Both the position numbers and the translations under genes were made by a program. From NCBI RefSeq assembly GCF_056712565.1, contig NZ_CM160072.1: a stretch of 64,000 nucleotides of DNA, one strand, 5' to 3'. Below are positions 51,959-52,006 of the stretch, in pieces. The stretch's first letter is position 1, and each line of letters opens with the position of its first letter. The notes below the pieces were generated by a model that was not told where the DNA came from, did not search any database, and was given only the letters and a program-made list of their open reading frames with translations.

Positions 51959-52006
51959 CTAACCTCTAACCTCTAACCTCTAACCTCTAACCTCTAACCT
52001 CTAACC
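51959..52006 (+). repeat. tandem heptanucleotide repeat (CTAACCT) x6 plus partial copy
   Basis: Six perfect 7-bp units 51959–52000 and partial CTAACCA 52001–52006; intergenic, between the OLD-like gene and gpV. Confidence 0.95.

What the first reader, a model, noticed from the sequence alone, without database searches (positions are those of the whole stretch)
51959..52006. Tandem heptamer (CTAACCT) x6.9 at the boundary of the OLD-like island and the gpV late region
A perfect 7-bp tandem array is unusual in an E. coli prophage intergenic region. It lies between the OLD-gene terminator and the gpV upstream region, so copy-number change by slipped-strand mispairing could alter promoter spacing or expression. 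It could also be an insertion scar or a recombination or protein-binding site marking where cargo is exchanged.
Basis: seen in the sequence. Interest (0 to 1): 0.5.

Follow-up and report, generated by a model that had tools for sequence, protein, structure and literature searches.

The report
Hypervariable microsatellite beside a prophage defence gene
The 7-base repeat is a real, fast-mutating microsatellite that travels with one particular anti-phage cargo gene of P2-like prophages and has persisted there, changing its repeat unit, across five enterobacterial genera; it lies outside the tail-gene promoter, is not a mark of cargo exchange, and its function, if any, is untested.

Summary
(CTAACCT)x6 plus CTAACC sits at 51959-52006 and is the only strong tandem repeat in the window (E. 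coli SF-468, a P2/186-like prophage).

It is a true VNTR. I found 21 complete E. coli-type arrays with 3-11 perfect units. Loci with zero SNPs in 6.5 kb of flank carry 5, 6, 7, 8 or 9 units.

The array lies between a strong hairpin after the cargo gene (AAA_15 + OLD-like TOPRIM) and the late-activator box TGT-N12-ACA of P_V. That box sits 54-58 nt before the V start in all 33 distinct P2-like V-upstream sequences examined. Copy number therefore cannot change core promoter spacing.

It is not a general cargo-boundary mark. None of 28 other cargo-bearing S-V junctions has any SSR.

Every relative whose cargo protein falls in the same 90%-identity cluster has an SSR at the same site. The unit differs: CTAGCCT+CTAACCT in Klebsiella, CTGCCT in Enterobacter and Cronobacter. 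Relatives at 84% and 77% have none. This points to one origin, long persistence and unit turnover.

Best reading: a slippage-prone, unstructured, C-rich, G-poor untranslated tract behind a protective hairpin. That is the signature of a Rho-loading/insulation zone between a lysogenically expressed defence gene and the late V operon. This function is inferred only; a neutral microsatellite is nearly as likely.

The parts
49383..49820 (+). Gene S (tail completion / virion morphogenesis). Last conserved late gene before the cargo; left edge of the variable S-V junction.
   Evidence: ORF list; RefSeq annotation 'phage virion morphogenesis protein'; Pfam Phage_tail_S on orthologues.
49866..49895 (+). 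Sigma-70-like promoter match (TCTACA-18-TATACT) upstream of the cargo gene. A candidate for lysogenic expression of the cargo; this is a consensus match only.
   Evidence: The total number of promoter-like matches in the region is no higher than in shuffles, so this is a lead, not a finding.
49966..51924 (+). Cargo gene: a 652-aa ABC-type ATPase (AAA_15) with an OLD-like TOPRIM domain. A single-gene, OLD/PARIS-like candidate anti-phage nuclease, in a cargo region of 34% GC.
   Evidence: Pfam AAA_15 2e-17 and OLD-like_TOPRIM 2e-5; PADLOC AriA 1e-21 and Old 2e-11; no close solved structure; GC 0.34.
51931..51952 (+). Hairpin 1: a 9-bp G+C-rich stem with a GAAA loop, 7 nt after the cargo stop codon. 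The tail UAUUCUAC is a poor U tract. It may be a protective 3' stem-loop or a weak intrinsic terminator.
   Evidence: RNA fold -17.9 kcal/mol, z = -6.8. Not called by the terminator scan. Conserved in the Klebsiella, Enterobacter and Cronobacter relatives.
51951..52007 (+). G-free, C-rich tract of 57 nt (C 22, T 17, A 16, G 0 in the 55 nt counted, 51952-52006). It is made almost entirely of the array and is predicted to be fully unpaired as RNA.
   Evidence: Longest G-free run in the 64 kb window; rank 51 of 63,923 for C minus G. Fold energy 0 kcal/mol.
51959..52006 (+). The finding: (CTAACCT)x6 + CTAACC, a perfect heptamer microsatellite (VNTR).
   Evidence: Copy number is 3-11 in other E. 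coli genomes and contigs with identical flanks.
51998..52021 (+). Hairpin 2 (CCTCT-AACC-AGAGG) plus a T-rich tail (GTTTATTTCT). A weak intrinsic-terminator-like element whose 5' arm is the last repeat unit.
   Evidence: Terminator scan. Fold -6.2 kcal/mol, not better than shuffles. Analogous small hairpins with a T-rich tail follow the arrays of the relatives.
52035..52052 (+). TGT-N12-ACA dyad: the binding box of the late activator (Ogr/B type) of promoter P_V, centred 56 nt before the V start.
   Evidence: The P2 record annotates the equivalent stretch as 'activator binding site; activation of pV promoter'. The dyad is present 54-58 nt before the V ATG in 33 of 33 distinct upstream sequences.
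52092..52100 (+). The point where nucleotide homology to the roughly 1000 other E. coli P2-like prophages resumes (right edge of the module-specific DNA), immediately before the V ATG at 52100.
   Evidence: hits that lack the cargo start at query position 393, which is window 52092.
52100..52678 (+). Gene V (baseplate assembly protein / spike), first gene of the late V-W-J-I-H-G operon.
   Evidence: In P2 the record places the operon's transcription start at the V start codon.

Best explanation
The array is a hypermutable, non-coding microsatellite. It belongs to the 3' flank of one particular defence-cargo module at the S-V junction of P2-like prophages.

Shown: it gains and loses whole 7-bp units far faster than the surrounding DNA acquires point mutations. 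It lies entirely upstream of the late promoter P_V. It arose once in the ancestor of the E. coli, Salmonella, Klebsiella, Enterobacter and Cronobacter versions of the module. It has persisted since then, while the unit itself was replaced (CTAACCT, then CTAGCCT, then CTGCCT).

Inferred: it acts, if at all, in the RNA. After the cargo stop codon the transcript forms a very stable hairpin without a good U tract, followed by this unstructured, C-rich, G-poor, untranslated tract. That is the arrangement reported for Rho-dependent 3' ends in E. coli (a protective stem-loop with the rut site immediately downstream). The tract would load Rho, helped by the weak hairpin and T tail at its end. That would stop transcripts from the lysogenically expressed cargo gene, and from the upstream late operon, before they run into the V tail operon. 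Such a role depends on length and composition, not on exact register. This would explain why copy number is free to drift between 3 and at least 11 units and why the unit sequence can turn over as long as it stays pyrimidine- and C-rich.
For: VNTR behaviour: 13 complete genomes have 5-9 units with identical flanks. Seven loci with 0 differences in 6559 bp carry 5 alleles. Further alleles of 3, 4 and 11 units occur in drafts and metagenomes.

Outside P_V.

Module-specific: the intergenic region matches only the 13 cargo-bearing genomes of 5426. No SSR occurs in 28 other cargo junctions, nor in 626 kb of P2-like DNA.

Persistence and unit turnover: an orthologous SSR is present in Klebsiella, Enterobacter and Cronobacter and absent in the 84% and 77% relatives. 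The cargo tree shows about 15% nucleotide divergence across SSR-bearing lineages. Klebsiella keeps 4 CTAACCT units beside 16 CTAGCCT units.

RNA features: hairpin 1 folds at -17.9 kcal/mol and the array is unpaired. The tract is the longest G-free run in the window. The C>G bubble grows from 19 windows (area 53) with no units to more than 78 windows (area above 700) at 3 units, the smallest allele seen. Those are the thresholds above which all templates terminated in vitro in PMC6144790.

Literature: Rho-dependent 3' ends lie after stable stem-loops that lack U tracts, with rut sites immediately downstream (PMC6061677). A simple (UC)15 repeat is an efficient Rho-dependent terminator when untranslated (Guerin 1998, as described in PMC5021804).

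The SSR-less relatives also have a hairpin followed by a 25-28 nt C-rich, G-poor spacer.
Against: No expression or termination data exist for this locus. C>G bubbles of similar length are common inside the AT-rich cargo ORF and also occur in the SSR-less relatives, so the descriptor is weakly specific. Any C-rich repeat would score the same.

Hairpin 1 may itself terminate, since the Cronobacter version has a better U tract. Hairpin 2 is not better than shuffled sequence. The broad allele range fits neutrality equally well.

The unit changes amount to only two mutational steps, so conservation of the CCTCT core is not statistically compelling. Persistence could reflect mutational dynamics rather than selection. 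Many of the E. coli genomes are probably clonally related, so allele counts are not independent.
Confidence: 0.4

Rival explanations
1. A neutral microsatellite. A proto-repeat (AACCTCT...CCTCT) in a dispensable spacer began to slip. The array now drifts in length and is homogenised by slippage, with no effect on any gene. It persists only because short arrays mutate slowly and nothing selects against it.
For: The allele spectrum is broad and unconstrained (3-11 units, all classes modulo 3). The units are perfect, as expected from rapid turnover. The array lies outside every recognisable promoter element and ORF. The SSR-less relatives at 84% and 77% keep the same gene order without it. The six-frame stop property of the heptamer is lost in the hexamer variant.
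Against: All 29 complete arrays seen across five genera have at least 3 units and none has collapsed. The SSR survived about 15% nucleotide divergence of the adjacent gene and two unit replacements. Long SSRs are otherwise absent from 626 kb of P2-like DNA. All three units keep C>G skew and the CCTCT core.
Confidence: 0.35
2. A contingency (phase- or rheostat-type) locus for the late promoter P_V. Copy number would change the distance or helical phase between an upstream element and the activator box, and so tune tail-gene expression.
For: Upstream SSRs can act on promoters from a distance, as the nadA TAAA tract does upstream of the core promoter (PMC2791445), or from the 5' UTR, as the H. 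influenzae HMW 7-bp repeats do (PMC12721329). The array ends only 28 nt before the activator box.
Against: The array spans -94 to -141 relative to the V start. All P_V elements are downstream of it, at a spacing that is invariant across 33 promoter versions. The commonest junction type (47 of 76 loci) has only 13 nt between the S stop and the box, so no upstream element is needed. Nothing recognisable lies upstream of the array except the cargo hairpin. There is no helical-phase preference among alleles.
Confidence: 0.08
3. A 3'-UTR element of the cargo mRNA. The pyrimidine-rich single-stranded repeats would bind an RNA-binding protein or a ribonuclease (S1, cold-shock proteins, RNase E or PNPase), or would pair with purine-rich sequences. 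This would set the stability or translation of the defence gene's mRNA, with copy number as the tuning knob.
For: The array is co-inherited strictly with this cargo gene. It is unstructured RNA downstream of the stop codon. Similar proposals exist for the intergenic TAACTGA heptamer arrays (PMC4679880). The core CCUCU resembles the anti-Shine-Dalgarno sequence (read from the sequence).
Against: If hairpin 1 ends or protects the mRNA, the array is trimmed away and is not part of the mature message. No complementary target was found. There is no evidence for any binding factor.
Confidence: 0.07
4. A DNA site for a protein or for recombination: iterons, an att-like or scar sequence marking where cargo is swapped, or a target of the cargo nuclease.
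For: It lies at the edge of a known accessory-gene hotspot. A defence hotspot within the P2 tail genes is noted in 10.64898/2026.02.27.708500, and P2 orf30 sits at this junction.
Against: No other cargo module at this junction has any SSR. The homology breakpoint is 86 nt away. There are no flanking inverted repeats. The unit sequence differs between relatives. The 7-bp period is shorter than typical protein sites and out of helical phase. No extra copies occur in the prophage beyond chance.
Confidence: 0.04

Closest known systems
neuO poly-psi heptanucleotide VNTR of the CUS-3 prophage in E. coli K1 (slipped-strand phase variation of capsule O-acetylation)
   Same: It is a perfect 7-bp tandem repeat, carried by a prophage accessory gene module in extraintestinal E. 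coli of the K1/ST95 type, and it varies by slipped-strand mispairing (PMC9659370). At least two of the present array's hosts are O1:K1:H7.
   Different: The neuO repeats lie inside the 5' coding region and switch translation on and off by frame. The present array is non-coding (stops in all six frames, no ORF) and lies 3' of its gene. The unit sequences are unrelated.
Intergenic promoter/5'-UTR SSR contingency loci (H. influenzae hmw1A/hmw2A 7-bp repeats; N. meningitidis nadA TAAA tract)
   Same: They are short-unit intergenic SSRs whose copy number varies at high frequency. The HMW unit is also 7 bp (PMC12721329, PMC2791445).
   Different: Those tracts lie between promoter elements, operators or the transcription start and the start codon of the regulated gene. 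This array lies upstream of the whole activator-dependent promoter and downstream of the preceding gene's hairpin. No expression effect is known here.
Rho-dependent terminators with a protective stem-loop and downstream rut site; artificial (UC)n Rho terminator
   Same: There is a stable hairpin without a good U tract, immediately followed by an untranslated, unstructured, C>G-skewed tract rich in YC dimers (PMC6061677, PMC6144790, PMC5021804).
   Different: Natural rut sites are not microsatellites and are not copy-number variable. Rho dependence is untested here, and the composition descriptor is not specific in this AT-rich context.
Accessory-gene hotspot at the S-V junction of P2-like phages (orf30 in P2)
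   Same: Same position. In P2, orf30 lies between the O-operon terminator after S and the P_V activator site. Of 76 related loci, 29 carry a low-GC insert here, in 16 different sizes.
   Different: The hotspot itself is known. An SSR inside a module at this hotspot was seen only in this cargo lineage.
Dispersed intergenic heptamer arrays (TAACTGA in Beggiatoaceae, cyanobacteria and Bacteroidetes; STRR-type repeats)
   Same: They are heptamer tandem arrays in non-coding DNA, often next to gene starts. The very same unit, CTAACCT, forms arrays of 3-93 copies in Bacteroidota prophages and in many MAGs (PMC4679880).
   Different: There is no flank homology to the E. coli locus. Those genomes carry many dispersed arrays, whereas here there is a single locus that evolved in place from a spacer.

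Membership tests
Hypermutable simple-sequence repeat / VNTR (slipped-strand mispairing locus) | Head-to-tail perfect copies of a short unit | tested here: met
   6.9 copies, 100% identity.
Hypermutable simple-sequence repeat / VNTR (slipped-strand mispairing locus) | Copy number differs, in whole units only, between otherwise identical or near-identical sequences | tested here: met
   Alleles of 3-11 units with identical flanks. Five alleles occur among seven loci with 0 differences in 6559 bp.
Hypermutable simple-sequence repeat / VNTR (slipped-strand mispairing locus) | High-frequency, reversible change within a clone | not testable with these tools
   This needs read-level data or fluctuation assays. 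Many short-read contigs end inside the array, which is compatible but not proof.
Phase-variable contingency locus (SSR controlling a gene) | SSR inside the ORF, between -35 and -10, between operator and promoter, or in the 5' UTR of the controlled gene | tested here: not met
   No ORF overlaps the array, and it has stops in all six frames. It lies 28 nt upstream of the activator box of P_V and 3' of the cargo gene.
Phase-variable contingency locus (SSR controlling a gene) | Expression of a gene changes with copy number | not testable with these tools
   No transcript or reporter data are available.
Rho-dependent terminator (protective hairpin + rut site) | Untranslated, unstructured RNA with C>G skew over about 60-80 nt and regularly spaced YC dimers | tested here: met
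   57-nt G-free tract with 0 kcal/mol fold. The C>G bubble is 102 windows (area 1658) at 6 units. A chain of 4 YC dimers at 11-15 nt spacing is present at 6 units, and 6 at 9 units. The descriptor is weakly specific here.
Rho-dependent terminator (protective hairpin + rut site) | Stable stem-loop not followed by a U tract immediately upstream of the rut site | tested here: inconclusive
   Hairpin 1 folds at -17.9 kcal/mol. Its tail UAUUCUAC has 4 U in 8 and is not called as a terminator, but the Cronobacter version has AUAUUUUA.
Rho-dependent terminator (protective hairpin + rut site) | Termination abolished by bicyclomycin or rho mutation | not testable with these tools
   Requires an experiment.
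Intrinsic (Rho-independent) terminator | G+C-rich stem-loop directly followed by a U run | tested here: inconclusive
   Hairpin 2 plus GTTTATTTCT passes the simple scan. Its stem is only 5 bp, at -6.2 kcal/mol, and 27 of 200 shuffles fold as well.
Iterons / tandem protein-binding sites | Unit long enough for a protein site, conserved in sequence among relatives, usually with further copies in the element | tested here: not met
   The unit is 7 bp. It is replaced by CTAGCCT or CTGCCT in relatives. Only 2 chance-level single copies occur elsewhere in the window, both in chromosomal DNA.
Recombination site or scar marking cargo exchange | Recurs at the boundaries of different cargo and coincides with the homology breakpoint | tested here: not met
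   None of 28 other cargo-bearing junctions has an SSR. The breakpoint is at about 52092, not at the array. There are no terminal inverted repeats.
   Pfam AAA_15 (7-367) and OLD-like_TOPRIM (443-508, E = 2e-5). PADLOC Old 2e-11, but the best hit is AriA at 1e-21. No anti-phage activity has been tested, and there is no close solved structure.

The most novel reading that the evidence does not exclude
The microsatellite is a selected, evolvable 'rheostat' insulator. In this reading, a copy-number-variable rut/terminator tract sets how much transcription leaks from a lysogenically expressed prophage defence gene into the tail operon, or sets the 3' end and level of the defence mRNA. It would have been maintained for that reason across five enterobacterial genera while its unit sequence turned over. 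That would be a contingency locus acting through transcription termination, a mode not described for bacterial SSRs as far as I could find, and it would sit in E. coli, which has very few SSR-controlled genes.
Probability: 0.15. Interest if true: 0.7.

Novelty: new member of a known kind. Interest (0 to 1): 0.42.

Why it matters
Long perfect microsatellites are rare in E. coli and its P2-like phages. This was the only one in 626 kb surveyed.

Practically, it is a fast-evolving marker that separates otherwise identical prophages in ExPEC/APEC lineages. It is also a recurrent breakpoint in short-read assemblies.

Biologically, the interesting point is persistence. The same site has kept a hypervariable repeat through about 15% divergence of the neighbouring defence gene and two replacements of the repeat unit. 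That is hard to reconcile with pure junk.

If the tract really loads Rho, it would show how a horizontally acquired defence gene inserted in the middle of a late operon is insulated from the genes around it. It would also give a natural example of a length-tunable terminator.

If it is neutral, it is a clean natural system for measuring SSR birth, unit turnover and slippage rates in Enterobacteriaceae.

Tried and rejected
1. Promoter-spacing idea. Rejected for the core promoter because the activator box and its distance to V are invariant and lie downstream of the array.

2. Cargo-boundary or recombination mark. Rejected by the survey of 76 S-V junctions, the homology breakpoint and the absence of flanking inverted repeats.

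3. 'Universal stop in six frames' as the function. The heptamers have this property, but the CTGCCT variant is open in all six frames, so it is not conserved.

4. Coding phase variation. No ORF of 20 aa or more overlaps the array.

5. Known RNA family. Rfam gave only a sub-threshold chance hit (rliE, 23 bits against a gathering score of 90).

6. Homology between the E. coli array and the arrays of the same heptamer elsewhere (28 viral loci, at least 120 genome loci). The flanks are unrelated. One recurrent family is a Mucilaginibacter-type (Bacteroidota) prophage.

7. Host identification of that family through its capsid protein in the phage collection: no match.

8. Literature search for the array sequence or for a VNTR or MLVA marker with this unit: nothing relevant.

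9. C>G-bubble descriptors as a specific test for a rut site. They are met, but similar bubbles occur inside the cargo ORF and in SSR-less relatives, so they do not discriminate.

10. An early script used V coordinates one base off (52101). This was corrected to 52100 after and affects no conclusion.
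Full report
**1. The observation**

The window reads ...GGTCGCAGGGGAAACCCTGCGATATTCTA (CTAACCT)x6 CTAACC AGAGGGTTTATTTC... at 51959-52006. Tandem Repeats Finder gives period 7, 6.9 copies, 100% matches and score 96. All 11 other rows in the window have at most 2.6 copies. A two-unit pattern occurs 6 times, all inside the array, against 0.2 expected from shuffles. The single heptamer occurs only twice elsewhere in the window, which is chance level.

**2. Context**

- The window is E. coli SF-468, NZ_CP012625.1, at 100% identity.
- From about 30.9 kb to its end it holds a P2/186-like prophage integrated next to rcdA/ybjJ.
- Around the array the gene order is lysB/lysC, R, S (49383-49820), a 652-aa cargo ORF (49966-51924), then V (52100-52678), W, J, I and H.
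- The cargo protein has Pfam AAA_15 (residues 7-367) and OLD-like_TOPRIM (443-508) domains. In PADLOC it scores best against the PARIS ATPase AriA (1e-21) and also against Old (2e-11). It has no close solved structure. 'OLD-like' is therefore fair at the domain level.
- The cargo region has 34% GC.

**3. It is a genuine VNTR and mutates much faster than its surroundings**

- Thirteen of 5426 complete E. coli genomes carry this junction. Their matches differ in length in steps of exactly 7 bp.
- After fetching all 13, the arrays have 5 units (five genomes), 6 (one), 7 (two), 8 (two) and 9 (three). Every unit is perfect and the immediate flanks are identical.
- With the array masked, seven of these loci have zero differences over 6559 bp, yet they carry five different alleles. 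Two others differ by one SNP and one unit.
- A prophage contig in the viral collection has 6 units. Metagenome contigs add alleles of 4 and 7 units. Draft genomes add 3, 6, 6, 9 and 11.
- Altogether there are 21 complete E. coli-type arrays: 3 (x1), 4 (x1), 5 (x5), 6 (x4), 7 (x3), 8 (x2), 9 (x4) and 11 (x1).
- Several short-read contigs simply end inside the array.
- Whole-unit changes in independent assemblies made with different technologies argue against artefact.
- Many hosts are probably clonally related ExPEC/APEC strains (at least two are O1:K1:H7), so allele counts are not independent samples.

**4. Anatomy of the intergenic region (51925-52099)**

- Seven nucleotides after the cargo stop codon lies a 9-bp G+C-rich hairpin with a GAAA loop (51931-51952). 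It folds at -17.9 kcal/mol, z = -6.8. Its tail UAUUCUAC is a poor U tract, and the terminator scan does not call it.
- Next comes the array, which as RNA is predicted to be completely unpaired. With its short flanks it forms the longest G-free run in the whole window (57 nt, 51951-52007). It ranks 51st of 63,923 positions for C minus G.
- The last unit supplies the 5' arm of a small hairpin, CCTCT-AACC-AGAGG, followed by GTTTATTTCT (51998-52021). The scan flags this as terminator-like. It is weak, at -6.2 kcal/mol, and 27 of 200 shuffles fold as well.
- Then comes the dyad TGT-N12-ACA at 52035-52052.
- In the P2 reference record the equivalent stretch is annotated as 'activator binding site; activation of pV promoter', and the transcription start of the V operon is placed at the V start codon.
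- I extracted the 120 nt upstream of V from 80 related viral loci, P2, and the Klebsiella, Cronobacter and 84% relatives. All 33 distinct sequences have a TGT-N11/12-ACA dyad centred 54-58 nt before the ATG.
- The array occupies -94 to -141 relative to the V start, so it lies outside the promoter.

**5. Is it a feature of cargo boundaries?**

No.

- Of 76 P2-like viral loci with both S and V, 47 have a bare 77-nt junction. In these the box starts 13 nt after the S stop codon and there is no terminator.
- The other 29 carry inserts of 16 different sizes (562-2279 nt), all of low GC. Each has its own version of the box.
- Apart from the locus identical to the window, none of the 28 cargo-bearing junctions contains any perfect SSR of 3 or more copies. 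In all 626 kb of these 80 loci, the only SSR with at least 4 copies and at least 20 nt is this array.
- The intergenic region matches only the 13 cargo-bearing genomes, even at blastn sensitivity.
- Homology to the roughly 1000 other E. coli P2-like prophages resumes at 52092, 86 nt beyond the array.
- No inverted repeats flank the cargo.
- A defence or accessory hotspot within the P2 late/tail genes is already known (orf30 in P2; preprint 10.64898/2026.02.27.708500). The repeat is not part of that general phenomenon.

**6. The unexpected part: the site, not the sequence, is conserved**

- The cargo protein belongs to a 90%-identity cluster of 132 sequences from E. coli, Salmonella, Klebsiella variicola, Enterobacter bugandensis and Cronobacter sakazakii.
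- In every one of these, an SSR follows the conserved hairpin in the S-cargo-V context:

| Host | Array at the orthologous site |
|---|---|
| Salmonella | CTAACCT, at least 4 units (contig ends in the array) |
| K. variicola | (CTAGCCT)x16 followed by (CTAACCT)x4, 140 nt in total |
| E. bugandensis | CTGCCT x4, x5, x10, x13 |
| C. sakazakii and two metagenome prophages | CTGCCT x14, x13, and 7 perfect + 2 impure units |

- Both flanks align between lineages. In each, a small hairpin with a T-rich tail (GTATTTC[A/T]TTTC) follows the array and precedes the activator box.
- Relatives whose cargo is 84% or 77% identical, also in the S-cargo-V context, have no SSR. They have a hairpin followed by a 25-28 nt C-rich, G-poor spacer containing CTCTCT or CCTCT.
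- More distant homologues (59%, and non-phage Pantoea at 75%) have none.
- On a tree of the cargo gene the SSR-bearing lineages form one clade, with E. coli at 85% nucleotide identity to the others.
- The simplest history is one origin from the pyrimidine-rich spacer, followed by two unit replacements. These are CTAACCT to CTAGCCT by a transition and CTAGCCT to CTGCCT by loss of one A, each spread by slippage. Klebsiella preserves the intermediate state.
- All 29 complete arrays across the five genera have at least 3 units.

**7. What it most likely does**

Shown:
- It is a hypermutable, non-coding SSR. No ORF of 20 aa or more overlaps it, and the heptamers have stops in all six frames.
- It is strictly linked to this cargo module.
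- It lies outside P_V.

Inferred:
- The features conserved across unit types are position, tandem structure, the CCTCT core, C>G skew and lack of structure.
- The six-frame stops are not conserved, because the hexamer is open in every frame.
- A stable stem-loop without a good U tract, followed at once by an unstructured C-rich, G-poor untranslated tract, is the arrangement that Dar and Sorek found at Rho-dependent 3' ends in E. coli. In their data the rut sites lie immediately downstream of the protective structure (PMC6061677).
- A plain (UC)15 repeat is an efficient Rho-dependent terminator when untranslated (Guerin et al. 1998, as described in PMC5021804).
- I applied the descriptors of Nadiras et al. 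(PMC6144790). The C>G bubble at this site is 19 windows (area 53) with no repeat units. It passes their empirical thresholds (more than 78 windows, area above 700) at exactly 3 units, the smallest allele observed. It grows to 137 windows at 11 units.
- I therefore favour a termination/insulation role. The cargo gene, probably expressed in the lysogen from its own promoter (a weak consensus match at 49866-49895), sits in the middle of the late region. Its transcripts have to be stopped before the V tail operon.
- Such a role depends on length and composition rather than register. That would explain both the free drift in copy number and the tolerance of unit turnover.

**8. Caveats**

- The bubble descriptor is weakly specific here. 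Comparable bubbles occur inside the AT-rich cargo ORF and downstream of the cargo in the SSR-less relatives.
- Hairpin 1 may terminate on its own.
- Hairpin 2 is not significant.
- The two unit changes are too few to prove constraint on CCTCT.
- There are no expression data.

A neutral, self-perpetuating microsatellite is nearly as likely. I put about 0.40 on the termination/insulation reading and 0.35 on neutrality. Smaller weights go to distal tuning of P_V (0.08), a 3'-UTR role for the cargo mRNA (0.07) and a DNA-binding or recombination site (0.04).

**9. Comparison with what is known**

- The closest E. coli precedent is the heptanucleotide poly-psi VNTR of neuO on the CUS-3 prophage of K1 strains (PMC9659370). 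That repeat is intragenic and works by frameshifting.
- The H. influenzae HMW 7-bp repeats and the meningococcal nadA TAAA tract are intergenic, but they lie within or next to the regulated promoter or 5' UTR.
- As a member of the class 'hypermutable intergenic SSR' the array passes every test I could apply. As a classical contingency locus it fails the positional criterion.
- I found no paper containing the array sequence or a VNTR marker with this unit.

**10. A side observation about the heptamer itself**

- Two composition-matched control heptamers gave 3 viral loci each.
- One recurrent family is a Mucilaginibacter-type prophage. It carries 4 to about 100 copies between its tape-measure gene and a small ORF.
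- These arrays share no flanks with the E. coli locus, which evolved in place. I treat the identity of the unit as coincidence or convergence. The enrichment is unexplained.

**11. Verdict**

This is a real and unusually persistent hypervariable microsatellite. It is a new member of a known kind, with a plausible but untested role in transcription termination or insulation.

Noticed in passing
L029:3265-3327 (also L017, L018, L022, L026/L027, L030, L090): A Bacteroidota (Mucilaginibacter-type, GC about 41%) prophage family carries the very same heptamer CTAACCT, mixed with CTAACCG, in arrays of 4 to about 100 copies (93+7 in L030). The arrays lie between the tape-measure gene and a 79-aa ORF (MDIQIANTLFDEGIFS...) and end 2 nt before its ATG. 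The flanks are unrelated to the E. coli locus.
   Followed up: partly
L043-L162 (genome-contig scan); controls L275-L280: CTAACCT-type heptamer arrays (with variants CTAACTT, TTAACCT, TTGACCT, CCAACCT) are dispersed at many sites in single genomes, for example Planctomycetota PLA5, Clostridiales AS22ysBPME_288 and Anaerovorax BM5. In viral contigs they are about 9 times commoner than two composition-matched control heptamers (28 loci against 3 and 3). This recalls the TAACTGA intergenic heptamers of PMC4679880. It is unexplained.
   Followed up: partly
window 52035-52099 and L173-L252: Every cargo module at the S-V junction brings its own sequence version of the P_V region but keeps a TGT-N12-ACA box 54-58 nt before the V ATG. 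No Shine-Dalgarno sequence is evident before V, and the P2 record places the transcription start at the V start codon, so V mRNA may be leaderless. In 47 of 76 loci S and V are only 77 nt apart with no terminator between them.
   Followed up: partly
L002:1268-3225 (E. coli APEC 16-1068): In this strain the cargo gene is annotated as two ORFs (417 nt and 1545 nt overlapping by 4 nt). This suggests a frameshift that inactivates the candidate defence gene, while the array (7 units) and the rest of the prophage stay intact.
   Followed up: no
window 55987-57998: A recombinase-family (invertase-like) gene lies next to two oppositely oriented tail-fibre assembly genes and a partial ORF, directly after tail-fibre gene H. 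This looks like an invertible host-range segment of the Gin/Cin type.
   Followed up: no
window 39102-41062: The other known P2 hotspot, between replication gene A and portal gene Q, holds an S1-family peptidase gene with an adjacent hypothetical gene and a further hypothetical ORF. These are possibly another defence cargo. A DinI-like gene lies nearby.
   Followed up: no
L258 (Pantoea agglomerans GCA_010667845.1): A 75%-identical homologue of the cargo protein sits in a non-phage chromosomal context, between a GntR-family regulator gene next to phnG and a mechanosensitive-channel gene. The gene therefore moves between prophage hotspots and chromosomal sites.
   Followed up: no
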